Under the pieces are notes generated by a model, which was not told where the DNA came from, searched no databases, and was given only the letters and a program-made list of their open reading frames with translations. The position numbers and the translations under genes were made by a program. Source: a virus (lineage: Duplodnaviria; Caudoviricetes). From it: 55,307 nt of DNA. Below, piece after piece: positions 26,222 to 52,286 of this stretch; position 1 is the first letter of the stretch, and every line of letters starts with the position of its first letter. The stretch is taken from positions 1 to 55,307 of the IMG/VR virus record IMGVR_UViG_3300012940_000030; one strand, 5' to 3'.

Positions 26222-26590
26222 TCGCCAACCAGTCGCCCGCTGTTTGCATTCAATGCGGTTTGATCGGGGCTGTTGAAGCGAGGGAGGCGAATTGGGTCAG
26301 ATCGAAGGCTCGGGAAGCTCCCTGCGAAAGTTGCTTTCCCGAGTCCTTCGCCACACGATCTGTGTCAAATTGACTCAGATACGAAAAATGCCCGTTATAA
26401 TGCTTTGGGCGCATTACGGGCGTCTGCCATCTCGGCTTTTTTTCGCGGGGCGCGGCAAAATCTGGACGCTAAACCCACCCAGAAACGCCCGTCTCTCCAC
26501 CGCTTTATTCTCGGCTATGTGCCTGAGAATGCGCGATATTCGCGCTAATTCACGACGCAGACAAATGAACGCTGGCGCCTGATTTGATCT

Positions 26591-28063: not shown

Positions 28064-28266
28064 CACCGACCCAGCTTAAGGAGGCCCGGCTCAGGCTGGG
28101 CCTCACCCTAGATCAAATGGCGAAGATGCTGGGGTATGAGAAAGAAAACGCTCGATCCCAGGTCCACCACATGGAAACTGGCAAGCGCCCAATCAGGCCC
28201 GCACAGCGACGGCTCGTTGAGGCCTATTCCGAGGGATATCGTCCGAAGGATTGGCCTTCAACCTAG
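28060..28266 (+). CDS. XRE-family HTH regulator
   Basis: MTPTQLKEARLRLGLTLDQMAKMLG...METGKRPI. Confidence 0.85.
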   Translation: MTPTQLKEARLRLGLTLDQMAKMLGYEKENARSQVHHMETGKRPIRPAQRRLVEAYSEGYRPKDWPST

Positions 28267-28807
28267 CTCTAGCTCCCATTCTACTCGAACGCTCCTGGGG
28301 CGTTTCCACATCCTCAATCCCAATCGTAATCGGAGTGGCCCGCCCGAATATCATCACCTCGACTTTGACCAGCCCGTCCTTGGCCCAATCGACAATTCCT
28401 GAATGGGCCGCAAACACACCGGCTTTGACGATGATTTCCGTTCCCTTCTCATACGTCTTTGACGGGGCTTTCTCTGGCTCTCTGCTGAGTTGCACAGACC
28501 ATTGGCGCATTTCATGGTTCTTGATCTGGACCGGGATGCCGTCGAACGTAACGGGGGCTTTGATCGCCCGGCAGAATGCCAGCTCGTGAAGGTCTGGCTT
28601 CTCTTGGTTGCGGGCGACGAACACGTAGCCGTTGGCTGCGATGACCTTGTGCCTAACGGTTGCCCCTATTCGACCACCCTTGCCTGAGCGCGTCTTGACG
28701 ATCTGGCGAGGTACGCAGGCATAAATCCCTCGCCGTAGGAGCTGGCGGGCTGATGATAGCTCGCGCTGTGGTTCGGTGCGGCACATGAACCATACGTGAC
28801 CCGCCAT
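28193..28807 (-). CDS. NusG-family antitermination factor (NGN + KOW)
   Basis: WFMCRTEPQRE, GYVFV, GVFAAHSGIV, VEVMIFGRATPI. Confidence 0.9.
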   Translation of the reverse strand: MAGHVWFMCRTEPQRELSSARQLLRRGIYACVPRQIVKTRSGKGGRIGATVRHKVIAANGYVFVARNQEKPDLHELAFCRAIKAPVTFDGIPVQIKNHEMRQWSVQLSREPEKAPSKTYEKGTEIIVKAGVFAAHSGIVDWAKDGLVKVEVMIFGRATPITIGIEDVETPQERSSRMGARARLKANPSDDIPRNRPQRAVAVRA

Positions 28808-28820
28808 GCACTTCCCTTCT

Positions 28821-29213
28821 CTAGTGGACCAATTCTTCGGCCATCCTCTGCGCACGCTGTACGGTCGTACGGCCCACATTGTAGGCCCTGGCAATCTCTC
28901 GCTGTGACCCAGTAGCCCGGCCCTCTGCGATGGCCTTGACGATGCTGGTGACTACCTTGCGGTCGCTCTGTGCTGGCCTCTTCGCTGGCTTGTTGGGGCG
29001 GCGCAAAGCCTTTGACTTACTGGGGTGGGCCACCTGGGGCACCGGGGCCGGTTCTGGCTCAACCTCGATGGCCCTGACGGGGAGCGGGGCCGGTGGGGCA
29101 ACGTGGCCCTCGGCTACCAGCTTCCGCACCGCCTGACTGTCCATCCAATCCTCTACGCGGGCGCACAATCTGCGAACGAATCGCTCAAATGGGCCGGGCA
29201 CATGCGAGATCAT
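28821..29213 (-). CDS. protein with C-terminal HTH
   Basis: SQREIARAYNVGRTTVQRA. Confidence 0.7.
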   Translation of the reverse strand: MISHVPGPFERFVRRLCARVEDWMDSQAVRKLVAEGHVAPPAPLPVRAIEVEPEPAPVPQVAHPSKSKALRRPNKPAKRPAQSDRKVVTSIVKAIAEGRATGSQREIARAYNVGRTTVQRAQRMAEELVH

Positions 29214-36929: not shown

Positions 36930-38595
36930 GTGCAGCCTCCGTATGCTTGCGAGCTTTAGCGAATGCGATGTTGCGATGCTTGACGAATTGGCGAACGGCA
37001 AACGAGGGCTCTATTGGCCCAACGTTGCTCACCCCTCGTGGCCAGACGCCAGTGGCATCTCGATAGAGATTTGCGGCATGTCCAGTTGACTTCGCGACAC
37101 TGAGAATTTGCGCGTACAAATCCGCCTTCGGAATCTGCGCCAGCGCCTCGTGCTTCGGTCGCTTTCCTTTGCGTCTCTTGCCTCCAAATTCCGTTAGCTC
37201 GCCCTCGATGGTGTGCACGTCGATGCGCTTAGGCAGTGGCGTTCCGCACTCAAGGCACGCGCGCTCACCAACAGGCATCAGCGCAGAACACGTGCCGCAA
37301 CACTTTGGCATCGGAGCAGACTTGTCGCGCTTCTGCGTCTTCGCTTGCTTCTTGGTGCCATCGTCTAGCTCATCGAAGTCAATGTCAGTCACGAACCCAA
37401 GACGGTCGTGGGTGTCTGAGTGGTCCAGAATCAGCGCATCCGACTTGCCTGGTGCGGTACGCAGTGCGCGCCCGACGATCTGAACGAATAAGCTTGGCGA
37501 CTTCGTTGGGCGCGCGAGGATCAAGCATCGCACATCCCAATCAATTCCAGTCGTGAGACACCCGATGTTGCACACGACCTTGATTTCACCGGAGTTGAGT
37601 TTGCGTCCGATCTCTTCACGTTCCTCGCGTGGGGTGTTTGCATCAACGTAGGCGACAGGAACTCCGAACTCTGCGAAGCGGTCGTGCAATGCCCGCGCAT
37701 GATCGCGGCCTGTTGCGAAACAAAGCGTCGGGCGATCCTCTCCGCGCTCAAGCCACGTGCTCACGATGTCAGCAACCAGCTTCGGCTTGTTCATCCGCTC
37801 TGCAAGCTGGCCCTCGTGGAAATCACCCGCCACCGTGGCCACCCCGTCCAGGTCGGGGTGAGATGGCGCGAACACACGAAACGGCGACAGGAACCCCATG
37901 TCGATCAGCTTCGCCATTGACGTGGTTTTGATCAGAGCATCCCAGCGCTTGCCCATGCCCTTAGCCCACGGGGTTGCACTGAGGCCTATGAACAGCGCTG
38001 ACGATTGCTGCATCCAACGGTCATAGACCGCGTGCTGAACGTGACACTCATCGACTACAACCACATCACAGACCGGGAACTTGCGCCGTGCGAGCGTCTG
38101 CGCCGTTGCGATCTGGACGGGCGCGTGTGGACGGCGCCAAGCATGGTCTGCCTGGATAACGCCCATGTCTGAGGCGTCTATGCCGTTTTCGAGAAAGCGT
38201 GCGAACGTCTGGTCAACGAGGCCAATCGTCGGCACGCAGAACACCACCCGGTTTCCCTTGGCGCGAGCACCAGCAACGATGTGCGCTGAGAGTACCGTTT
38301 TTCCGAACCCGCACACGGCTTGCAAAACCGGCCGACGTGCTCCCGAGCGGAGAGCGCTGCGTAAGGCATCCATGGCAGTGAGTTGGTGTGGGCGCAGCGG
38401 CCTCAAGCCGACGATGGCTGGCTGGATAGGCGATTGCCGCCCCAAATTTGGCGTTTGGCGGCTTTTTGACGGCAAGCCGCTACCCATGTAGCCGAAATCT
38501 TCGCGAGCGGCCTCAGCGTGTTCCCTAGCGGCGTTCTCACAAAACGTGAGCAGCGACTCGCAAGCGTCTGAGTTGGATGGGGTTTGCGAGGTCAT
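36916..38595 (-). CDS. superfamily 2 (DExH) helicase with C-terminal zinc finger
   Basis: GFGKT, DECH, SATP, QIVGRALR, CxxC..CxxC. Confidence 0.93.
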   Translation of the reverse strand: MTSQTPSNSDACESLLTFCENAAREHAEAAREDFGYMGSGLPSKSRQTPNLGRQSPIQPAIVGLRPLRPHQLTAMDALRSALRSGARRPVLQAVCGFGKTVLSAHIVAGARAKGNRVVFCVPTIGLVDQTFARFLENGIDASDMGVIQADHAWRRPHAPVQIATAQTLARRKFPVCDVVVVDECHVQHAVYDRWMQQSSALFIGLSATPWAKGMGKRWDALIKTTSMAKLIDMGFLSPFRVFAPSHPDLDGVATVAGDFHEGQLAERMNKPKLVADIVSTWLERGEDRPTLCFATGRDHARALHDRFAEFGVPVAYVDANTPREEREEIGRKLNSGEIKVVCNIGCLTTGIDWDVRCLILARPTKSPSLFVQIVGRALRTAPGKSDALILDHSDTHDRLGFVTDIDFDELDDGTKKQAKTQKRDKSAPMPKCCGTCSALMPVGERACLECGTPLPKRIDVHTIEGELTEFGGKRRKGKRPKHEALAQIPKADLYAQILSVAKSTGHAANLYRDATGVWPRGVSNVGPIEPSFAVRQFVKHRNIAFAKARKHTEAAHGAA

Positions 38596-39071
38596 TGCGG
38601 GCGACCTCCGGGCGTGCAGTGCCCAACTGAAGCCGACCCCCCGCCCCCTACTACCTTTGACGTATCACCTAGAGGATAGGTCTCAATAAAGGTGTCTAAC
38701 TCCCTGGTAGAATAAACCTTAGAAGTAAGTGGAGGGGCCACATTGGCCTCTAGGCCTAGACATACGTTTTGGCCCCTAGGCTTTCTGCGCCTACAGGCCA
38801 CATTGGCCCATAGGAGAACGTATTTTGTCGTCACCCGATGCCCCCTTGAATTGACCTTCCGTTCACGCTCTATGAGCTTGTCTTTCGCCAGCTTGGCGGT
38901 GGCCCGCTTCAACGTTCGTTCCGGCATGTCGAGCATGTGGGACAGATCAGAAATTGAGACCACGACGGCCCCATTACGGTTGGCCATGTACGCCAATCTG
39001 ATCAGCACATGATTGGCGCGGTCGCATCCCGTCCGCTGCTTTAATGCCCACTGAAAGTGCTTCCAACTCAC
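38592..39071 (-). CDS. winged-HTH replication initiator-like protein
   Basis: WA....VLIRLA..AN..G...S...L...ERTLKRA...L. Confidence 0.75.
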   Translation of the reverse strand: MSWKHFQWALKQRTGCDRANHVLIRLAYMANRNGAVVVSISDLSHMLDMPERTLKRATAKLAKDKLIERERKVNSRGHRVTTKYVLLWANVACRRRKPRGQNVCLGLEANVAPPLTSKVYSTRELDTFIETYPLGDTSKVVGGGGSASVGHCTPGGRPQ

Positions 39072-39406
39072 GCGGCATTCCTCCGAAACCCACCGCGAAA
39101 AGCCCGCGTCAATTCCTTCGCCCTCATGTCGATTGTTTCGAGGTCCGCAATGATTGCCCTGTCACCGGATGCAATCACGGCATCTATGCGCCCAATGCCG
39201 TACAGGACCGGGGTGTAGTGCTGGCCAAGCTTGTTTGCGATTTGCAGGATGCTGTAGCCGTGCAACTTGCTGACCCAGGCGGCACACCAACGGGCCTCTG
39301 TCTCAGCCCGCGGCCCGTAACGTCCGCAGAACTTTTCCAGCGGAATGCCGCTGCATTCGCTCGTGGCCTTGATGATGTCGGCTAGGCGGGGGCGTGTAGG
39401 ATTCAT
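39068..39406 (-). CDS. DnaA C-terminal (domain IV)-like HTH protein
   Basis: II...G...AR..A.W...GYS..QIA..LG.HYT.VLYG. Confidence 0.7.
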   Translation of the reverse strand: MNPTRPRLADIIKATSECSGIPLEKFCGRYGPRAETEARWCAAWVSKLHGYSILQIANKLGQHYTPVLYGIGRIDAVIASGDRAIIADLETIDMRAKELTRAFRGGFRRNAA

Positions 39407-39630
39407 GCGGCCCTCCGTTGGTCCAGGAGCGCCGCAAGCATTGCTTGCTTGAGTGAGCGGTAGACGATCTGCCCAACGCGATCACCGCGCTTGGCGCGCC
39501 ATTGCAAGCCATCTTGGACGGTGGCGTATCGCCCGCATGTGGAACGCCATTCGTAGTCACCGGAGCCGACTGCCCAGCATTGCCATGTGATGCCGTTGAT
39601 GGTGAAATCTGGAGCGGAGGAACGCTTCAA
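39403..39630 (-). CDS. hypothetical protein
   Basis: Coupled in operon. Confidence 0.55.
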   Translation of the reverse strand: MKRSSAPDFTINGITWQCWAVGSGDYEWRSTCGRYATVQDGLQWRAKRGDRVGQIVYRSLKQAMLAALLDQRRAA

Positions 39631-39989
39631 GCCCGCGCCCTCCCCATCCCAATAGACGGCGCAATGGAGCGCATCTCACCGAAGAACTTATCGGTGAGAC
39701 GTCCCGCTCTGCGCTCGATGTAGTTGATGCTGTCGATGGTCTGCTGATTGCCGTCTGCGATCTCGGCTGTGATGCGCTCTATGGAGCAGCGGACGCAGGA
39801 ATGATCCCTACCTAGCGTGTTAGCGACCGTGAGGACCGCGTAACCGTTCTTGACGGCAACGTAGGAAATCAGGTGCCGGGCGCGCATGTAGCGGCCCTGA
39901 CGTATGGGCGCGAGAATGTATTTCTCTTCGACGCCGACGACAATGCACGCTGCGCTGATGATGTCGCGCAATCGAGGTCGATTAGACAT
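39627..39989 (-). CDS. DnaA C-terminal (domain IV)-like HTH protein, paralog
   Basis: ARHLISYVA...GY....VA..LGRDHSCV. Confidence 0.75.
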   Translation of the reverse strand: MSNRPRLRDIISAACIVVGVEEKYILAPIRQGRYMRARHLISYVAVKNGYAVLTVANTLGRDHSCVRCSIERITAEIADGNQQTIDSINYIERRAGRLTDKFFGEMRSIAPSIGMGRARA

Positions 39990-40066
39990 GCAAACCCCTA
40001 TCTATTCGGGGCGTGCGTCTTGACCTTCGCAGCAAATCGGCGCATACAATTCGCATGTGCTGCGTA

Positions 40067-40190
40067 GGGCAAAACTCAAGCCCACAAGCGACCCGCCAAG
40101 GTCGCCATTTCCTGAAGTTGATCCGCCAAGATCATAGAAACAGTCGAACCCTGATCGAGCCCGCCAGCTCCTTCGGGGTTCCTCGTTTTT
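40067..40190. ncRNA. structured element with three CCGCCA-loop hairpins (sRNA or leader element)
   Basis: Three different stems with the same loop; promoter-like TTGACC...TACAAT upstream on +, T-run downstream. Confidence 0.6.
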
Positions 40191-40398
40191 AGTCGTCGTG
40201 TTCGTCCATAAACTTCAGCGTCGGCAACGTGATCGGCTTGTCCCGCCTAGCAAGGCTCGCTGTCTGCGCATCACGAACCGTTTTCTCTGTCTTGGTTGGT
40301 CGGCGCTTGAACACGAATGCTGATCGCAAGCCGTTCGGCCTGCACTGCTCAGACCCGCCGTATTTGCGAGCCGACGACCAGTTCATTCGGTTGGACAT
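40189..40398 (-). CDS. small basic protein
   Basis: TGATG coupling; ends KPITLPTLKFMD. Confidence 0.6.
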   Translation of the reverse strand: MSNRMNWSSARKYGGSEQCRPNGLRSAFVFKRRPTKTEKTVRDAQTASLARRDKPITLPTLKFMDEHDD

Positions 40399-40496
40399 CA
40401 GGCCCGCAGCACAATGACGGTTGCGATCACGAGGCAACAGGCAGCTCCGAGGACAAGCCCTGAAAGGACGGCTGCAAACGCAGGGTTTCTATCCAT
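40398..40496 (-). CDS. 32-aa single-pass membrane peptide
   Basis: MDRNPAFAAVLSGLVLGAACCLVIATVIVLRA; coupled. Confidence 0.5.
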   Translation of the reverse strand: MDRNPAFAAVLSGLVLGAACCLVIATVIVLRA

Positions 40497-40641
40497 GCTG
40501 CTCTGCTCCCGCATTCATGATGGTTTCAATCTCGACGCCTTCGCCCCACCAGAAGAGAACCGTGCTCTGGTGCCACCCCTGCATTTCATATCTGCGGAGC
40601 TTGGTGATTGCGTCGTCGATGGCTTGCGCGAGTTGGCTCAT
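40489..40641 (-). CDS. 50-aa hypothetical protein, first gene of the leftward early operon
   Basis: GAGGA RBS; MSQLAQAIDDAITKLRRYE. Confidence 0.6.
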   Translation of the reverse strand: MSQLAQAIDDAITKLRRYEMQGWHQSTVLFWWGEGVEIETIMNAGAEQHG

Positions 40642-40889
40642 TTGATCCTCTGAATTAGTACGGGCGATGCGCGGATTTCACGGCATGCAAAAATCCCCTC
40701 AGGGCCACCATCGCCAACCGCATCTGCGCTTTCGTCAGTTCGATCCGCCCGCTGACCGATGGACCTTCCGACGATGGTGGGAACAGTCACTTTGCGAGAT
40801 GCAGGATGGGGACGGCTCATCACCGTGCCGATGCCTCGCGGCAAGGGCTTCCTGCACCCGGCAAAATGACCGGCACTCAAACGCTACGG

Positions 40890-40954
40890 AGAAAAGCGGC
40901 CGGTGATCAGAACGAGACCCGGCCTAAGTCTAGGGAGGAACGCCCAAGGTGGGC
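40890..40954 (-). ncRNA. MmgR/suhB (alpha-r8)-like small RNA
   Basis: Hairpin, GUUCCUCCCUAGACUU, GGCCGG..CCGGCC hairpin, U-rich tail. Confidence 0.65.
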
Positions 40955-41368
40955 TGGTACTGCTCTAGGGAACAGCACCGCGAAGCCGATCAGAGTGGCC
41001 TGGCCAGACCTTGCTGCCTGCTCCGGTGCCTATCTGGCTAACCGGCTCCGTCCCAACCCTGCCAGCTTTCAGGACGATGGTTTGGAGTGCAGGTATCCAA
41101 TCGACTTCGCGCTACTGTCCTCAACGCCACAGCAGGCCCCTGGGTCCTCAACCTCGCGCATCATGGGTGAGACCACCGTGCGCACGCGGTTCGTGGCCGC
41201 TGTCTCGCCAGGGGCCAGCTCTAGCGCTGGCTACTCGGAACTAACGACCGGGGAGTGGCTGCCCTCACAAACCACCCCCCGGTCTCGGCTACCCCCGCCG
41301 ATGCCCTTACGGGCCGTTCCATCGGCAATGGGAAAGTGTACGTCGCACTCGCGCCACGGTGGCGTGCT

Positions 41369-41438
41369 ACGTAAATTGACTTTACGTGATAGGAGGCGTA
41401 TATGTCAACAGGTGTAATCTGGAAAAATCGTTTTACGT
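41369..41438 (-). promoter_or_regulatory. leftward early promoter with repressor operators (OR-like)
   Basis: Perfect palindrome ACGTAAA-N5-TTTACGT at 41369-41387 over the -10; minus strand TTGACA-N18-TAAAGT; second half-site at 41432-41438. Confidence 0.75.
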
Positions 41439-41473
41439 GCGCGGCATGGCGAGTTGTGTGAAGACTCGCCCTC

Positions 41474-41749
41474 ATGGAAAGGTTTGAGACCAAGGTGAAA
41501 AAGGCTTTTGCGGAGCGGCTACGCAGCGCTCGCGAAGCGGCTGGCTATAAGACGATGGCCGACTTTGCCGATGCCATGGGCGTCGAACCACCCACATATC
41601 GCTATTGGGAGCGCGGGCAATCTCTTCCCGACCTGCCCCAGCTCACGCGGATATGCCAGCTTTTGGATATTGAGCCGAATGACCTTCTGCCATTGGGTAA
41701 GCGGCGCCGCCCTACCCATATGGACACAGATGGAAAATCCGCAGCATGA
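41474..41749 (+). CDS. CI-like XRE repressor (no peptidase domain)
   Basis: FAERLRSARE..G...DFA..MGV...TY.YWERGQS.PDL; flanked by operators. Confidence 0.88.
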   Translation: MERFETKVKKAFAERLRSAREAAGYKTMADFADAMGVEPPTYRYWERGQSLPDLPQLTRICQLLDIEPNDLLPLGKRRRPTHMDTDGKSAA

Positions 41750-42181
41750 GGTATCTACAAGCTGTGTTCGGGGCGGTGAATGACAATCACCGCAAGGGCA
41801 CCTCAGTCAGGCTGTATCGAAAGATTAGATTACTAGCCCAAACCAAAGAGGACGCGAGCTAGCCCCTGGCTACTCGGCATCGTTTCCTGCTCGATGACAA
41901 CTGAGGGCGGATGGTGGCCCACCTCAGGCTGGGCGACCCGCCGCGATGCGCTTGATGACCTAGCGCGGAGATGGCCCGGTCTGATGCGGCAACAGTCATA
42001 GACAGTATGCGCTTCATCTAATCCTCCACCCTAATATACCAAATAGGGTGCGCATCGCGCGAACCTGACGCAAGTCACGGTCGTGCTCTGTCCACAGACA
42101 TAAAACACATTCACGCCCCGTGCGATTCTCAACGATTAGGCCGTCGCGGCTCTGATCCAGGATGATCCCCGTTGCATAAGC

Positions 42182-42241
42182 CCGTAAAAAATATTTGCAT
42201 TTTCCTGTTGACGGGCGTGGCAACGTAAAGTAGTTTTACGC
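42182..42241 (+). promoter_or_regulatory. rightward early promoter with two operators (OL-like)
   Basis: TTGACG-N17-TAGTTT; CCGTAAA-N5-TTTGCAT and ACGTAAA-N5-TTTACGC. Confidence 0.75.
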
Positions 42242-42353
42242 ACATAAACGAGCGCCGAGCGGGTCGCCACTAGCCAAACCTGATGGCCCGCTCGGCAGAG
42301 AAACGAACAACAGGGCACGGCGTCTTTCTTCGCAACCATTCAGCGCACGGAGA

Positions 42354-42533
42354 ATGACGATGGACGGACTAACACACGAGCAAACTCAACAATTCCTGAG
42401 GGGCTATTTCGCTGCCCTGAGGAACGAACCCATAGACCATCACGAGACCCCGGAATGGAAGGACGGTTACGCCTTCCGCGTTCAGGTGATGGCCGAAAAG
42501 GCGGAACGGAGACTGCAATGCAGGCTGCACTGA
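42354..42533 (+). CDS. small protein, weakly Rmf-like
   Basis: GGAG RBS; FLRGY.A...EW.DGY. Confidence 0.6.
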   Translation: MTMDGLTHEQTQQFLRGYFAALRNEPIDHHETPEWKDGYAFRVQVMAEKAERRLQCRLH

Positions 42534-42877
42534 CCCAGATCGACAGCCGCCCGAAGTGGCAGCAGCTCATGGACGCGCACGCTGCGGAATGCCGTAGCCG
42601 CGATCTGATCCAGCCGTTGCGTCCCTTCATCTCTAACACCGAGCGTCGGCGGGCAATCACGCTCTGCATGCCGATGTGGTTGGACGAGCTTGAGGCGACT
42701 GACGTTGCGGGCCGCAAGCGTGTTGTGGAGCGGTTGGGCCAAGCATTGCTGGTCGAAGATCGTCGGCGCCGCACGGGAAGCTGGAATTATCTACCCGGAC
42801 GCCACCGGCACATGCTCGCAGTCTACAAGCGCGAGTTGGCGGACCTCAATGCAGCGATGGCACGGAGGGCGGCATGA
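42518..42877 (+). CDS. hypothetical protein (DUF6477-like)
   Basis: E.RRRRTGSWNY...RH..ML..YKRE. Confidence 0.65.
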   Translation: MQAALTQIDSRPKWQQLMDAHAAECRSRDLIQPLRPFISNTERRRAITLCMPMWLDELEATDVAGRKRVVERLGQALLVEDRRRRTGSWNYLPGRHRHMLAVYKRELADLNAAMARRAA

Positions 42878-42993
42878 TCTCCCTCCCCATCGACTACACC
42901 CCCGACGCATCAACCATCCTCATGGCCATTGTGGCCGTTGAATTCATCTACGCTTGCGTTTGGACGCGCAAGAAGATCGTGAGAAACCGATGA
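42874..42993 (+). CDS. 39-aa membrane peptide
   Basis: ATGA overlaps at both ends; hydrophobic core. Confidence 0.5.
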   Translation: MISLPIDYTPDASTILMAIVAVEFIYACVWTRKKIVRNR

Positions 42994-43352
42994 ACGCTCA
43001 GTGTCAAGCAGCGGCCGACCTCGCATTCTTCGTCCACGAGACGTTGGAACTAGCGAACCCTGATGCAGTCGGAACGCTCGCGAAACTCGCCAACAACGTC
43101 CTGGACGCAATCCACCTCCCGCAACTCAAGCTCTCACCCGAAGAGATAGAGCGCCGCAAGCTCCTATCAGAGTTTCGGCATCCGTCACGCGACCGAGAGG
43201 AAACGGAGTGGGACCGGGAGCACGTCATCAGCGCCAGACACAAGGCGATGACGAAGGACGCAGAGATTGCGCGAGTGGTTCAATCCACTTTGCCGCCGAA
43301 CGTCCTGCGGTTCCCCGTTGTGCCGCGTCTCAACTCAGAGGTGACGCGATGA
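42990..43352 (+). CDS. hypothetical protein
   Basis: Coupled; NVLRFP motif. Confidence 0.65.
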   Translation: MNAQCQAAADLAFFVHETLELANPDAVGTLAKLANNVLDAIHLPQLKLSPEEIERRKLLSEFRHPSRDREETEWDREHVISARHKAMTKDAEIARVVQSTLPPNVLRFPVVPRLNSEVTR

Positions 43353-43501
43353 TCGAGGATGATGGAATTCCGTTTGACCTCGCCGAAGAGGACCGGATTT
43401 CCACCGACTACACGAGCGACATGCATACCGCAGAGATCATCGCGGGCGTTGTTGTCGGGTCGCTACTTGCCGCTGCGGCGGTTTGGTTTTTGCTGGCTTA
43501 G
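43349..43501 (+). CDS. small membrane-anchored protein
   Basis: GAGG RBS; C-terminal hydrophobic helix. Confidence 0.6.
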   Translation: MIEDDGIPFDLAEEDRISTDYTSDMHTAEIIAGVVVGSLLAAAAVWFLLA

Positions 43502-43504
43502 GGG

Positions 43505-44329
43505 ATGACAATGGACGGCTTTGATCCAGTAACGGGTGAAGTTTCGGACGCGCCGACGTCAGAACGAGCGCTCATGGCTGGGCGCCTGGAGCGAGCCGAG
43601 CGGGCGGAGCGAAAGCACGCGGCTGTCGTTGGAACATCTAACCTGAACGGAAAGATTGACGCGGCCCTAGCGCAAATCCAGCCTGTTCTCAAGAACAACA
43701 AGCTGGAGAAGGACAAGCCGGGCCAACGCGGCAACTACACAAGTCTTGATCGCATCGCCGCAATACTCATTCCACGTCTGCGCTCTGAAGGCGTGATGCT
43801 GCGCTGGAATGCGGGTCACGTCTTCACGATGGATAAGACGTACTGGCTGCCGGTGACTTGCTACCTGATAGACCGCGAGACCGGCGAAAGCGTTGAGTGC
43901 ACGCTGCCAATGCCAATCTCGCAGGTCAATCCGCATGGGCTGGCAAGCGCCTTCACCTATGGGCGACGCCTTACGGTGCTTGGGGCAACGGGCCTTGTGA
44001 CCGGCGATGAGGGCGAGGACGACGATGGCATGGCGGCTATGCCCCGCGCCATGGAAGTAGAGAGCGAGGTTGACTCTCTCAAGCGCGAGCTTCTGGAGAA
44101 CCCCACCGAAGCCGAAGCCGTCAAATGGAAGGCAGCGGTCCACAAGCGCCTACAGGATTTGGAGGCCGACGACTTTGAGGCCGTGAAGGTTGCGTTTCAG
44201 GATCACGTCAAGAGCATTCGGGCCAAGATAGCGAGCGGAGAGGTGCCAGCCCCAAAGCCGTCGAAGCCAACGCGCGGCGGTCCCAAAGAGCGCATAGCTG
44301 CCACACATAGCGACGGTGGCACGGCATGA
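43505..44329 (+). CDS. erf: ERF-family single-strand annealing recombinase
   Basis: Y.SL, ASAFTYGRR..VLG..GL....EDDDG. Confidence 0.88.
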   Translation: MTMDGFDPVTGEVSDAPTSERALMAGRLERAERAERKHAAVVGTSNLNGKIDAALAQIQPVLKNNKLEKDKPGQRGNYTSLDRIAAILIPRLRSEGVMLRWNAGHVFTMDKTYWLPVTCYLIDRETGESVECTLPMPISQVNPHGLASAFTYGRRLTVLGATGLVTGDEGEDDDGMAAMPRAMEVESEVDSLKRELLENPTEAEAVKWKAAVHKRLQDLEADDFEAVKVAFQDHVKSIRAKIASGEVPAPKPSKPTRGGPKERIAATHSDGGTA

Positions 44330-50944: not shown

Positions 50945-51282
50945 GGCGGATGGATATGGGGGGTGGTGATAGCGGCGCTCTACTCACCCCAGCGCAGTGC
51001 AGAGAGCGCCTTCCATTTGCGATAAGCGAAAGACGGCTACGTCAGTACCTACGCGCATCGAAGCTGTGCATCGAGCACAGACGCCAACTAGCGATTACCG
51101 ACGCGCGCTGGCCAGAGTTTCTTGATTGGATGTCAAAATGCTCAAGCTCAAGCAGAGGATCGTCAAAACGAAGCGCGGGGAAACCCGCGTCTGGTACATC
51201 AAAGGTACGTGCCCATACACCGGAAGCCCTGTACGCGAAAGCGCAGGCACTGATAGCAGGCACGAGGCAGAGCAGAAACTAG
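50941..51282 (+). CDS. xis: excisionase-like protein
   Basis: LLTPAQC...ISERRLR wHTH; overlaps the int start with a C-S-S-S basic tail. Confidence 0.65.
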   Translation: MRRMDMGGGDSGALLTPAQCRERLPFAISERRLRQYLRASKLCIEHRRQLAITDARWPEFLDWMSKCSSSSRGSSKRSAGKPASGTSKVRAHTPEALYAKAQALIAGTRQSRN

Positions 51283-52286
51283 CCGAGTACCTAGCCCGGA
51301 AGAGGGACGAGGTTATGCTAGGCCCGTCCAACGGCACGGCCCTGTTTGCCGAGGCAATAGCCGAGTACATCGGAAAAATGGGTGAGAGTCGGTTTCTTGA
51401 TCCTCTTCTGGAGAGGTTTGGGAAGATGCGTTTGCGTGACATCGAGGACAAGCATCTCACAGAACTGGGAAACCGCATATACCCCGGCGCCAAGGCATCG
51501 ACACTTGTGCGCCAACTCTATGGACCGATGCAGGCCGTGTGGAACCGGGCCGTTGACGCCAAGATGGTTGGTCCAAGGAAGTTCGCAAAGCCATCTGTTC
51601 CAAAACCGCGATCTGAGGGTGTGACAGAAGACTGGCTGCGCAAACTTGTGCGCGACGGCCTCACAACCGTGCAACAAAGGGCCACGGTGCTATTCATGTC
51701 GTTCTCGGCTTGCCGCTCGGGTGAGGCGTGCGGAATTCTCATCCAGCATTACGACCCCGGCATCGGTCGCATTCTAGTTGTAGACACCAAGAATGAAGAC
51801 CCCCGCGAGATTTGGTTGACGCCACTGGTCAACGAATACCTGCAAGCCATGCTCGCGGAGCGGCTGGCGCGGATGCGGGCTGCGGTAAAAGACGACACCT
51901 TGGAGCTTGATCCTGAAACGCCCCTGTTCGGGTACTCAACTCGATTTTCGATCTGGCACATGGTCGCCCGCGGCTGTGAGCGCGCCAAGATCAAGCACGC
52001 CTCCCCGCACAAGATCGGTCGCCACACGTTCGCCGCTAGGTTCCTGGCAGACGGACACTCGCTGAAGGCGCTGATGGAGGCTGGCGGTTGGCGCAGCGTC
52101 GGGGCCGTTTTAAGGTATTCGCACCTGGAGACATCAAAAGTGCGTCAGGCCGTTGCCCATGTCTCCACGCCTCTGTCAACCCAGCTCGCACTAGAACATA
52201 CGCAGGATTCCACTGTGCCAAAAGTGGGTCACAGCAAGGGCGATGTTCTCACCCCGTTCCCGACTCATAAGAAACAGGCCGGATAA
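51138..52286 (+). CDS. int: tyrosine integrase
   Basis: CRSGE, TKN, HKIGRHTF, GGW, RYSH catalytic residues. Confidence 0.93.
   Translation: MLKLKQRIVKTKRGETRVWYIKGTCPYTGSPVRESAGTDSRHEAEQKLAEYLARKRDEVMLGPSNGTALFAEAIAEYIGKMGESRFLDPLLERFGKMRLRDIEDKHLTELGNRIYPGAKASTLVRQLYGPMQAVWNRAVDAKMVGPRKFAKPSVPKPRSEGVTEDWLRKLVRDGLTTVQQRATVLFMSFSACRSGEACGILIQHYDPGIGRILVVDTKNEDPREIWLTPLVNEYLQAMLAERLARMRAAVKDDTLELDPETPLFGYSTRFSIWHMVARGCERAKIKHASPHKIGRHTFAARFLADGHSLKALMEAGGWRSVGAVLRYSHLETSKVRQAVAHVSTPLSTQLALEHTQDSTVPKVGHSKGDVLTPFPTHKKQAG

What the first reader, a model, noticed from the sequence alone, without database searches (positions are those of the whole stretch)
40645..41372. No cro: the leftward lytic promoter is followed by ~730 nt of densely structured, apparently non-coding RNA
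Seen: the switch is lambda-like (operator/promoter, repressor, operator/promoter), but no credible HTH ORF follows the leftward promoter; the first gene with an RBS starts at 40641. The gap holds serial domains: GCCGATG/CATCGGC enclosing a GCCC-GUAA-GGGC GNRA hairpin (41297-41326); a long hairpin (41246-41284); GGCCCCTGG/CCAGGGGCC multiloop (41135-41216); TGCAGGA/TCCTGCA junction with a GCGA tetraloop (40800-40856); CCACCATCG/CGATGGTGG multiloop (40705-40780). Inference: an RNA-based lysis-lysogeny or antitermination device (put-like), or a polycistronic sRNA precursor.
Basis: partly seen in the sequence, partly recalled or inferred. Interest (0 to 1): 0.75.

Follow-up and report, generated by a model that had tools for sequence, protein, structure and literature searches.

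The report
Structured phage early leader carrying MmgR-type sRNA
The 730 bases behind this temperate phage's early promoter appear to code for no protein but for a tightly folded leader RNA that contains a known type of bacterial regulatory small RNA and its terminator, so the phage probably makes a host-directed small RNA and meters early gene expression from one transcript.

Summary
Between a repressor-controlled leftward promoter (41408-41379) and the first gene with a ribosome site (40641) no frame shows a coding signal, a family match or a relative. The minus-strand RNA folds better than shuffles (z -4.27) and better than all 300 same-size window/strand samples of the phage. The plus strand does not (z -0.51).

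The gap is not anonymous. At 40961-40883 (-) lies a full-length match to Rfam RF00519 (suhB/MmgR, alpha-r8 sRNA; 44.2 bits, cut-off 41) with a CCUCCC seed and an intrinsic terminator. The same core occurs in 84 other IMG/VR stretches, mostly behind a phage NusG-like gene. This scan has noted phage-borne MmgR-like sRNAs on at least 8 other genomes, and structured early leaders on others.

A 24-bp long-range stem ends 9 nt before the sRNA. Its arms lie in blocks conserved in a related 42,996-nt contig, while its apex is replaced there.

Best reading (about 0.45): a non-coding early leader that acts as a terminator gate and as precursor of the sRNA, like StxS or DicF. An sRNA gene with its own promoter is the main rival. 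A put-like antiterminator is not supported. "No cro" is true for HTH genes in the gap but unproven for the operon. No RNA data or alignable relatives were obtainable.

The parts
41379..41408 (-). PR-like early promoter, TTGACA-18-TAAAGT
   Evidence: It is the only promoter-like site in 39800-42600, with 10 of 12 matches. It is overlapped by the operator palindrome.
41369..41387 (.). Operator palindrome ACGTAAA-N4-TTTACG (OR). An imperfect further copy lies at 41417-41438.
   Evidence: One search found only two sites in the window, with 0 expected. (I4) shows the imperfect partner.
42223..42240 (.). Second operator palindrome (OL), overlapping a weaker rightward TTGACG-17-TAGTTT (42208-42236)
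   Evidence: The operator is. The promoter was read by eye and was not reported by the scan.
41474..41749 (+). 91-aa XRE-type HTH repressor gene without a peptidase domain
   Evidence: Pfam HTH_31 E 4.1e-11 and HTH_3 E 8.2e-10. PHROG 3, 'transcriptional repressor', E 1.3e-11.
41246..41326 (-). Two 5'-proximal leader hairpins: 41326-41297 with a GUAA-capped inner stem, and a 15-17-bp hairpin at 41284-41246 with two G-U pairs
   Evidence: z -2.49 and -5.89. The 120-nt window 41190-41309 has z -3.53. A 1-nt deletion in three relatives falls in the linker (41291), not in a stem.
41122..41229 (-). Multi-branched domain closed by 8+8 bp (41229-41222/41129-41122 and 41216-41209/41142-41135)
   Evidence: (I1). 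Most of it (41137-41240) is replaced by 95 unlike bases in the X2 contig.
40970..41120 (-). Long-stem domain: a 16+8-bp near-continuous duplex (41120-41096 with 40994-40970, five G-U pairs) enclosing about 100 nt. Its 3' arm is the same bases as the 5' arm of the sRNA's first hairpin.
   Evidence: I3; z -4.03, 0 of 200. Both arms lie in blocks conserved in the X2 contig, and the apex 40996-41084 is replaced there by 106 bases.
40883..40961 (-). alpha-r8 / suhB-MmgR family sRNA: hairpin GCCCA-CCU-UGGGC, single-stranded GUUCCUCCCUAGACUU, terminator hairpin. An optional extra 5' hairpin lies at 40979-40956.
   Evidence: Rfam RF00519, 44.2 bits against a gathering score of 41, model positions 1-77 of 77, E 6.8e-06 for the whole window. 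Fold.
40888..40924 (-). Intrinsic terminator of the sRNA: GGCCGG...CCGGCC stem (-14 kcal/mol) followed by GCUUUUCUCC
   Evidence: The simple terminator scan did not list it (bulged stem, short U run).
40705..40870 (-). Downstream leader: 21-nt-armed domain 40870-40786 and domain 40780-40705 closed by CCACCAUCG/CGAUGGUGG
   Evidence: I2, I10; 238 nt: z -2.19, 5 of 200. The window 40770-40889 has z -4.40.
40489..40641 (-). First gene of the early operon: 50 aa, AGAGGA ribosome site, three predicted helices, no known family
   Evidence: A 47-aa homologue (78% identity) lies on a 42,996-nt contig. AF2 pLDDT 84.7. No fold match: Foldseek E 9.1, VIA Z <= 4.7.

Best explanation
The gap is the untranslated, strand-specifically folded 5' leader of the early (replication) operon of a temperate phage whose host is probably an alphaproteobacterium.

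Shown:
- It lies behind a promoter overlapped by one of the two operator palindromes.
- It carries no coding signal.
- It folds far better than chance on the transcribed strand only.
- It contains, 411-490 nt from the expected start, a full-length alpha-r8/MmgR-family small RNA with an anti-Shine-Dalgarno CCUCCC seed and its own intrinsic terminator.

Inferred mechanism:
1. When the repressor leaves the operator, transcripts enter the leader.
2. A share of them stops at the sRNA terminator, giving a ~490-nt RNA.
3. That RNA is trimmed to the ~80-90-nt sRNA. The 24-bp duplex that ends 9 nt before the sRNA is a plausible double-strand-specific cut site, and it must open for the sRNA's own first hairpin to form.
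4. The sRNA then acts in trans, with Hfq, on host (perhaps also phage) mRNAs with strong GGGAGG-type ribosome sites.
5. The remaining transcripts read through, or are helped through by a phage factor, into the replication genes.

The leader would thus both meter early expression, a job done in lambda by Cro and tR1/N, and deliver a host-directed regulator at the start of lytic growth.
For: Promoter and operators.

No coding signal:
- No Pfam match for 3 ORFs (also no PHROG match) and for 10 stop-to-stop frames.
- Codon and GC-position statistics are non-coding-like.
- The 203-aa plus-strand ORF hit only itself, and the 80-aa minus-strand ORF hit nothing, among 5.8 billion proteins. The same database does hold the related contig's copy of the neighbouring 50-aa gene.

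Strand-specific stability:
- Whole gap: z -4.27 (minus) against -0.51 (plus).
- Promoter-to-terminator 490 nt: z -3.84, 0 of 100 shuffles, against -0.87, 22 of 100.
- The gap is the most stable of 300 same-size samples of the phage.

sRNA: above Rfam's curated cut-off over the whole model. The same 23-24-nt core occurs in 84 other viral stretches.

Family context: among the 80 loci fetched, 49 have a same-strand ORF of >=150 aa ending within 700 nt upstream. 26 of those 49 are NusG-domain proteins. Among the 62 with a same-strand downstream ORF of >=150 aa, 8 are small-terminase genes and 3 large-terminase genes. So the family habitually sits in operon leaders, in the sense orientation.

Long stem: z -4.03. 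Its arms lie in blocks conserved in a collinear 42,996-nt relative (0 differences in 41085-41136; 19 in 40546-40995), while the enclosed apex is replaced.

Precedents (abstracts read): StxS, an Hfq-bound sRNA made by termination at tR' just behind the phage late promoter PR' (PMC7547250). DicF, cut by RNase III and RNase E out of a prophage operon repressed by a CI-like protein (PMC10448788).
Against: - No RNA data exist. None of the 6 runs that hold the DNA is on record as RNA, so start, end, processing and read-through are all inferred.
- No base-pair covariation could be tested, because close relatives were visible only as block-level summaries and more distant phages share only the sRNA core.
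- In the X5 relative the 3' arm of the long stem lies inside the replaced segment (joint 40962 to 41087), so that stem is not demonstrably conserved.
- Replacement blocks of about 100 nt also occur outside the gap (40089-40179, 40453-40546, 42366-42486). The apex replacement may therefore be ordinary mosaicism.
- Local 120-nt windows in the middle of the gap are not more stable than shuffles.
- The terminator is modest: -14 kcal/mol, four U.
- Several family members in other phages have an evident sigma-70 promoter directly before the sRNA (by eye, e.g. L083, L094, L117). Independent transcription is therefore a normal mode for this family.
Confidence: 0.45

Rival explanations
1. The sRNA is an independent 'moron' gene with its own promoter, expressed in the lysogen. 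It happened to be inserted between the early promoter and the early genes. The rest of the gap is recombination-scarred spacer whose folding has no function.
For: The sRNA core is a mobile module shared with 84 otherwise unrelated viral stretches, and only the core is shared. Relatives lose similarity at three different points just upstream of it (40962, 40980, 40995), as expected at a module boundary. Some family members have clear promoters of their own (by eye). Chromosomal mmgR is an independently transcribed gene (review passage, PMC7143759).
Against: No promoter-like site was found upstream of the sRNA in the window (one search lists only PR; by eye CTAGAG has no -35 partner). The segment just upstream is hypervariable among near-identical phages, which is odd for a promoter. 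The sRNA has the same orientation as PR and the operon. The flanks are significantly and strand-specifically structured, which spacer should not be.
Confidence: 0.3
2. The 5' hairpins (41326-41246) or another leader domain are a cis-acting antitermination RNA (put-like), or a loading site for a phage factor such as the NusG-like protein. This lets polymerase pass the sRNA terminator and later terminators. It can coexist with the best explanation.
For: A terminator lies in the leader of an operon that must be expressed. The phage encodes a borderline NusG-like protein at 28193-28894 (22.1 bits, cut-off 22.2). In 26 of 49 other phage loci the sRNA follows a NusG-domain gene. The hairpin 41284-41246 is exceptionally stable (z -5.89).
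Against: No Rfam family matched. No boxA-like motif lies in the gap. GCGGTAG lies within 60 nt upstream of the sRNA core in 29 of 79 loci (expected about 0.5), but it is absent from this gap and from the late leader. The gap shares no motif with the late leader or any other part of the phage.
Confidence: 0.12
3. A small protein, a Cro analogue, is encoded after all. The best candidate is the 60-aa frame from ATG 40820, whose stop overlaps the next start (ATGA at 40641-40638).
For: GAGG lies about 11 nt before the ATG, with the same SD energy as the accepted first gene (-5.9 against -5.8). The ATGA overlap suggests translational coupling.
Against: Codon score is -0.079, and GC3 is 0.49 against 0.67-0.72 in neighbouring genes. 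There is no Pfam or PHROG match. There is no relative among 5.8 billion proteins of 44-140 aa, even though the 96%-identical contig's neighbouring gene is in that database. The frame runs through the most stable local RNA domain.
Confidence: 0.07
4. The inverted repeats act at the DNA level, for example as a replication origin, further repressor or CII-type binding sites, or a PRE-like promoter firing towards the repressor gene.
For: The region lies in the immunity/replication control zone. An imperfect third operator-like copy exists at 41417-41438.
Against: The stability is strongly strand-asymmetric: 52 kcal/mol in favour of the transcribed strand, with 5 G-U pairs in the 24-bp stem. That points to RNA, not DNA. 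There are no iteron-like direct repeats, only 2-copy families of 9-13 nt. The operator motif occurs nowhere else in the gap.
Confidence: 0.05

Closest known systems
suhB / MmgR (alpha-r8) sRNA family, Rfam RF00519; MmgR of Sinorhizobium meliloti, SisA-D of Caulobacter
   Same: It matches the whole model above the curated cut-off. It has a GCCC-loop-GGGC hairpin, a single-stranded U-rich CCUCCCU seed and a Rho-independent terminator. The family is described as spread by duplication plus vertical and lateral transfer within Alphaproteobacteria (passage in PMC12559287).
   Different: This copy is carried by a phage. It lies inside the leader of the repressor-controlled early operon rather than being a stand-alone chromosomal gene under NtrC/AniA control (PMC7143759 passage). 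The seed is one U shorter than in 72 of the 74 distinct phage copies aligned.
StxS of Shiga-toxin phages (PMC7547250, abstract read)
   Same: A phage promoter is followed by an intrinsic terminator. The short terminated leader RNA binds Hfq, is processed, and acts in trans on host mRNAs. The terminator is also the gate for downstream phage genes.
   Different: StxS comes from the constitutive late promoter PR' and tR', is made in lysogens and is 74 nt. Here the promoter is the repressed early one, the terminator is ~490 nt downstream, and the sRNA belongs to a host sRNA family. Nothing here is shown experimentally.
DicF in the dicBF operon of prophage Qin (PMC10448788, abstract read); KilS of Rac
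   Same: An sRNA is embedded in a prophage operon that is repressed by a CI-like protein, and it is released from the long transcript by RNase III and RNase E.
   Different: DicF lies between protein genes, not in a 730-nt gene-free leader. That switch has a Cro-like DicC. The sRNA families are unrelated.
Lambda PR-cro-nutR-tR1 and HK022 put RNAs (recalled, not checked in a paper here)
   Same: The position is the same: a terminator soon after the early promoter, which must be overcome to reach the replication genes, with folded RNA elements in the leader.
   Different: There is no cro, no boxA-like motif and no N-like gene recognised. No similarity to put could be tested.
Long structured early leaders of other prophages noted by this scan (e1-3465226 Pseudomonas, e1-459309)
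   Same: These are 600-760-nt gene-free, folded leaders in the immunity region.
   Different: The sequences and hosts are unrelated, and I did not check those notes.

Membership tests
Rfam RF00519 suhB/MmgR (alpha-r8) | Covariance-model score at or above the curated gathering score over the full model | tested here: met
   44.2 bits against 41, model positions 1-77 of 77, not truncated.
Rfam RF00519 suhB/MmgR (alpha-r8) | Conserved single-stranded 10-mer UUUCCUCCCU between hairpin and terminator | tested here: met
   The window has GUUCCUCCCUAGACUU, one U short. Relatives X5 and X4 carry the extra base(s) at 40938/40940. 72 of 74 distinct phage copies have UUU.
Rfam RF00519 suhB/MmgR (alpha-r8) | Rho-independent terminator at the 3' end | tested here: met
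   GGCCGG/CCGGCC stem, -14 kcal/mol, then GCUUUUCUCC.
Rfam RF00519 suhB/MmgR (alpha-r8) | Hfq-dependent trans-acting regulator in an alphaproteobacterium | not testable with these tools
   The host is unknown (virus record from a soil metagenome) and there are no RNA or protein-binding data.
Cro / small HTH lytic repressor | Small HTH ORF as first gene behind PR | tested here: not met
   No HTH or any other Pfam match in any gap frame of >=40 aa. The first gene (50 aa) has no Pfam or PHROG match, and its fold search is inconclusive (Z <= 4.7).
Lambda-type nut site | boxA-like motif plus boxB hairpin in the leader | tested here: not met
   0 matches in 40645-41372 to a recalled boxA-like 11-mer at up to 2 mismatches. 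The window has 4 matches against 8.07 expected. The motif comes from memory, so the test is weak.
HK022 put RNA | About 65-70 nt, two stem-loops, acts in cis on RNA polymerase without protein | not testable with these tools
   No Rfam row other than suhB and two chance-level hits at E<=10. I did not verify that Rfam holds a put model. Two adjacent hairpins exist at 41326-41246, but that resemblance is only topological.
Leader-terminated / operon-processed phage sRNAs (StxS, DicF type) | The sRNA 3' end is made by the leader terminator and the 5' end by processing of a promoter-proximal transcript | tested here: inconclusive
   The geometry fits: promoter 41408-41379, terminator 40924-40888, a 24-bp duplex ending 9 nt before the sRNA. 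No RNA ends are available.

The most novel reading that the evidence does not exclude
This phage has replaced the protein Cro/tR1-N layer of the lambda-type switch by RNA. The ~490-nt early leader would be a folded precursor whose terminator sets the rate of entry into replication. Its processed product, a hijacked host alpha-r8 sRNA, would reprogramme host translation or carbon storage at the moment of induction. The leader domains would control the choice between termination (sRNA release) and read-through, through the mutually exclusive pairing of 40994-40970 with either 41120-41096 or the sRNA's own first hairpin.
Probability: 0.12. Interest if true: 0.75.

Novelty: new variant of a known kind. 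Interest (0 to 1): 0.45.

Why it matters
If the reading holds, it extends the StxS/DicF principle to Alphaproteobacteria and to the early operon. In that principle, phage transcription-control elements double as sources of host-directed small RNAs. It would also show a host sRNA family (alpha-r8/MmgR, linked to carbon storage in rhizobia) being carried widely by phages.

I found no paper that links MmgR or alpha-r8 to phages. The search for 'mmgR' plus 'phage' returned 8 papers, none on this point judging from their listing and from passages in two of them. The searches 'alpha r8' plus 'prophage' and 'alpha r8' plus 'sRNA' returned 0 papers, and that phrase probably does not match the printed Greek form. 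Supplements were closed.

It also gives a concrete, testable case of a lambda-like switch without a recognisable Cro. The sRNA itself is a new member of a known family and has been noted repeatedly by this scan, which limits the surprise.

Tried and rejected
Relatives for covariation
- blastn of 40400-41800 against phages and plasmids gave no match.
- The repressor protein as query gave one 38% hit in viral contigs, and only distant Firmicute-type HTH genes in genome contigs and metagenome contigs. Those two capped scans were poorly spent.
- Helicase relatives L073-L080 (45-62% aa identity) share no DNA with 38501-43000 and have no Rfam hit.
- A 26-mer from the fully conserved block had no match in viral contigs.
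- Neighbouring genes 39627-39989 and 42455-42877 have no relatives in viral contigs.
- nhmmer of the two flanks against 88 loci (775 kb) gave nothing below E 0.05.

RNA evidence
- No RNA holder is listed among the 6 runs.
- The contigs of X2-X5 were laid, but the per-base difference table was cut (353 rows not shown), so no compensatory changes could be read.

Other attempts
- A MAFFT/RNAalifold run on 74 family members failed to align the variable hairpins and gave a meaningless consensus with 0 covarying pairs. I draw nothing from it.
- The plus-strand 203-aa ORF is rejected. It hits only itself and has non-coding composition. The summed length changes in the X2 contig (+17, -9, -1) are not a multiple of three.
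- sRNA seed against 463 start regions of the phage: the best is -21.0 kcal/mol (39403-39630 ORF), 3.6 sd below the mean. That is about what the extreme of 463 values gives. The repressor ranks 354 of 463. The exact seed complement with up to 2 mismatches gave 5 matches against 2.2 expected, one of them the gene itself. There is no convincing phage target.
- No repeat is shared between the gap and the rest of the phage.
- There are no tRNA or tmRNA genes.
- The 50-aa first gene gave no usable hit in the protein atlas, a Foldseek E of 9.1 and VIA Z <= 4.7 with generic three-helix domains.
- phmmer of the repressor against 2415 ORFs within 2.5 kb of the sRNA in the 80 loci gave no hit at E<=0.01. 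The immunity-region context therefore seems unusual for this sRNA family.
Full report
WHAT THE WINDOW IS. The window is a whole IMG/VR virus record of 55,307 bases, 86% complete by CheckV, from a soil metagenome, with about 59% G+C. It is temperate:
- a tyrosine integrase at 51126-52286;
- an ERF recombinase at 43505-44329;
- a 91-aa XRE-type HTH gene at 41474-41749 (+).

Leftward of the finding lie replication genes on the minus strand: two DnaA-domain-IV-like small genes, an O-like initiator and a helicase. Further on lie a borderline NusG-like gene (28193-28894; 22.1 bits, cut-off 22.2) and the late genes.

THE SWITCH. The promoter scan finds a single site in 39800-42600: TTGACA-18-TAAAGT at 41408..41379 (-). 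The palindrome ACGTAAA-N4-TTTACG occurs only at 41369-41387, over that promoter's -10 and start, and at 42223-42240. None is expected by chance. By eye, the second copy overlaps a weaker rightward TTGACG-17-TAGTTT. The repressor has no peptidase domain.

IS THE GAP CODING? I found no sign of it.
- Three ORFs of 80-203 aa had no Pfam or PHROG match at E<=0.1, and ten stop-to-stop frames of 40-252 aa had no Pfam match at E<=0.1.
- With a codon model trained on the 23 ORFs of >=250 aa, the gap ORFs score -0.04 to -0.32 per codon, against a training mean of 0.149 (sd 0.075). They also lack the low-GC2/high-GC3 pattern of the neighbouring genes.
- The 203-aa plus-strand ORF found only itself among 5.8 billion proteins, and the 80-aa minus-strand ORF found nothing.
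- This blank is somewhat informative. The same database does contain the homologue of the adjacent 50-aa gene (47 aa, 78% identity) from a 42,996-nt contig. That matches the length of the related contig seen in run X2.
- The only minus-strand start with a tolerable ribosome site and more than 40 codons is ATG 40820 (60 aa, stop overlapping the next start). Its composition is non-coding-like. I keep it as a low-probability rival.

IS IT STRUCTURED BEYOND CHANCE? Yes, on the transcribed strand.

| Stretch | Minus strand | Plus strand |
|---|---|---|
| Whole gap, 728 nt | -345.9 kcal/mol, z -4.27, 0 of 20 shuffles | -293.9, z -0.51 |
| Promoter to terminator, 490 nt | z -3.84, 0 of 100 | z -0.87, 22 of 100 |
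| Downstream 238 nt | z -2.19, 5 of 200 | not run |

Against 150 windows of 728 nt on both strands of the phage (300 folds), the gap's minus strand is the most stable. The next is -333.1, and the gap lies 3.07 sd below the GC regression.

In an unbiased 120-nt scan of 39000-43000 (130 windows, 30 shuffles each), the 21 windows inside the gap average z -1.17 on the minus strand and -0.26 on the plus strand. Three reach z <= -3, against four of the 101 windows outside. 'Densely structured' is therefore overstated: there are islands at 41190-41339, 40890-41009 and 40770-40889.

There is also a long-range element that short windows miss. A 16+8-bp duplex, 41120-41096 with 40994-40970, closes a 181-nt domain (-85.4 kcal/mol, z -4.03, 0 of 200). 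It has five G-U pairs, and the 41284-41246 hairpin has two. These would be A-C mismatches on the other strand, which explains the strand asymmetry and argues for an RNA-level rather than a DNA-level feature.

WHAT IS IN IT? Rfam finds one family above its gathering score in the whole window: RF00519 suhB/MmgR at 40961-40883 (-), 44.2 bits against 41, over all 77 model positions. It consists of:
- a hairpin GCCCA-CCU-UGGGC;
- the single-stranded seed GUUCCUCCCUAGACUU;
- a GGCCGG/CCGGCC terminator hairpin (-14 kcal/mol) followed by GCUUUUCUCC.

MmgR is the Hfq-dependent alpha-r8 sRNA of Sinorhizobium that limits polyhydroxybutyrate accumulation (passages in PMC7143759). The family is described as restricted to Alphaproteobacteria and spread by duplication and by vertical and lateral transfer (passage in PMC12559287). 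This suggests the host class.

An extra 10-bp hairpin (40979-40956) can form just upstream. Its 5' arm is the same sequence as the 3' arm of the long-range duplex, so the two folds exclude each other.

HOW COMMON IS THE MODULE IN PHAGES? The core pattern has exact matches in 84 viral stretches, and 80 loci were fetched. Only the core is shared with the window. Of the 80 loci, 49 have a same-strand ORF of >=150 aa ending within 700 nt upstream, and 26 of these are NusG-domain proteins. Among the 62 with a same-strand ORF of >=150 aa starting within 1000 nt downstream are 8 small-terminase genes, 3 large-terminase genes and 2 HTH_3 genes.

The usual place of the phage copies is therefore the late-operon leader behind a NusG paralogue. 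An earlier follow-up of this scan concluded the same on another genome (e1-5352236). The window's copy is unusual in sitting in the early leader next to the immunity region. No ORF within 2.5 kb of the sRNA in the 80 loci resembles the window's repressor (phmmer).

RELATIVES. Contigs of four metagenome runs carry 80-99% identical DNA. The X2 contig (42,996 nt) is collinear from 39083 to 43497. Its conserved blocks are:
- 40546-40995, 19 differences;
- 41085-41136, 0 differences;
- 41241-42366, 24 differences.

Its replaced blocks are 40996-41084 (89 bases replaced by 106) and 41137-41240 (104 by 95). The first replaced block is almost exactly the apex enclosed by the long stem, and both arms are in conserved blocks. 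That fits a conserved stem with a free apex.

The fit is weak, however. The X5 contig loses similarity already at 40962, so its 3' arm is replaced, and similar ~100-nt replacements occur outside the gap. A 1-nt deletion shared by three runs (41291) falls in the linker between the two 5' hairpins. The per-base table was truncated, so covariation could not be counted.

MECHANISM. The steps shown are the promoter/operator geometry, the absence of coding signal, the strand-specific stability, and the sRNA family membership with terminator. The rest is inferred, and I hold this reading at 0.45:
- After derepression, part of the PR transcripts end at the sRNA terminator.
- That RNA is trimmed to the sRNA. 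Recalled knowledge: duplexes of about 20 bp are typical RNase III substrates.
- The sRNA acts through its anti-Shine-Dalgarno seed.
- The rest of the transcripts read through into the replication genes.

Known precedents are StxS, a terminated PR' leader that becomes an Hfq-bound sRNA (PMC7547250, abstract), and DicF, cut by RNase III and RNase E from an operon repressed by a CI-like protein (PMC10448788, abstract).

The main rival (0.3) is an independently transcribed sRNA gene in a mosaic spacer. A cis-acting antitermination element in the 5' hairpins may coexist (0.12), but nothing supports it directly:
- no further Rfam match;
- no boxA-like motif (motif recalled);
- no motif shared with the late leader;
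- the GCGGTAG motif is absent here, although it precedes the sRNA core in 29 of 79 other loci.

NOVELTY. The sRNA is a new, phage-borne member of a known family. The scan has noted such copies on this window (e1-6297566) and on at least eight other genomes, and structured early leaders on others. I found no paper linking MmgR or alpha-r8 with phages:
- 'mmgR' plus 'phage' returned 8 papers, none on this point by their listing and by passages in two of them.
- 'alpha r8' plus 'prophage', and 'alpha r8' plus 'sRNA', returned 0 papers. That phrase probably fails to match the printed Greek letter, so these two blanks weigh little.
- Supplements were closed.

The particular arrangement is a gene-free, 730-nt, strand-specifically folded early leader with an embedded host-type sRNA and terminator, in a switch without a recognisable cro. 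I rate it a new variant of a known kind, at moderate interest, because expression and processing are entirely inferred.

Noticed in passing
L081-L160 (e.g. L085, L087, L129, L143), 60 nt upstream of the sRNA core: GCGGTAG, usually as GTGCGGTAGCG forming the 5' arm of an extra hairpin and often preceded by CATAGG, lies within 60 nt upstream of the sRNA core in 29 of 79 loci. About 0.5 are expected from its overall frequency. From memory, it resembles the ops element that recruits the NusG paralogue RfaH, and 26 of 49 of these loci have a NusG-domain gene just upstream. The window's two leaders lack it.
   Followed up: partly
window 41750-42353: This is a second gene-poor stretch of ~600 nt, between the repressor gene and the rightward promoter. 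A 52-aa minus-strand ORF (42017-41859) has a strong GGAGGA site but non-coding-like composition and no Pfam match. The 12-mer CTGGCTACTCGG occurs at both 41227-41238 and 41866-41877.
   Followed up: partly
window 39960-40200: This island is strongly structured on both strands (z down to -3.9 on the minus strand and -4.3 on the plus strand in 120-nt windows). It lies between early genes and matches the three CCGCCA-loop hairpins of another first-reader note. Part of it (40089-40179) is replaced in the X2 contig.
   Followed up: no
window 41440-41476: The repressor's ATG has no Shine-Dalgarno sequence before it (GACUCGCCCUCAUG), and the divergent promoter region is only ~65 nt away. The repressor mRNA may be leaderless or SD-less, as recalled for lambda cI from PRM.
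   Followed up: no
window 40925-40942: The window's sRNA seed is one U shorter (GUUCC) than in 72 of 74 distinct phage copies; only L144 shares this. The related contigs in X5 and X4 carry the extra base(s).
   Followed up: partly
window 26280-26291: The late leader holds a CGCCUCCCUCGC motif (anti-SD-like) on the sense strand, but no Rfam match and no sRNA-type terminator was noticed.
   Followed up: no
window 39403-39630 and 38592-39071: The start regions of a 75-aa ORF and of the O-like initiator are the best and fourth-best predicted partners of the sRNA seed among 463 start regions (-21.0 and -17.9 kcal/mol). This is within what chance extremes give, but both lie in the same early operon as the sRNA.
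   Followed up: partly
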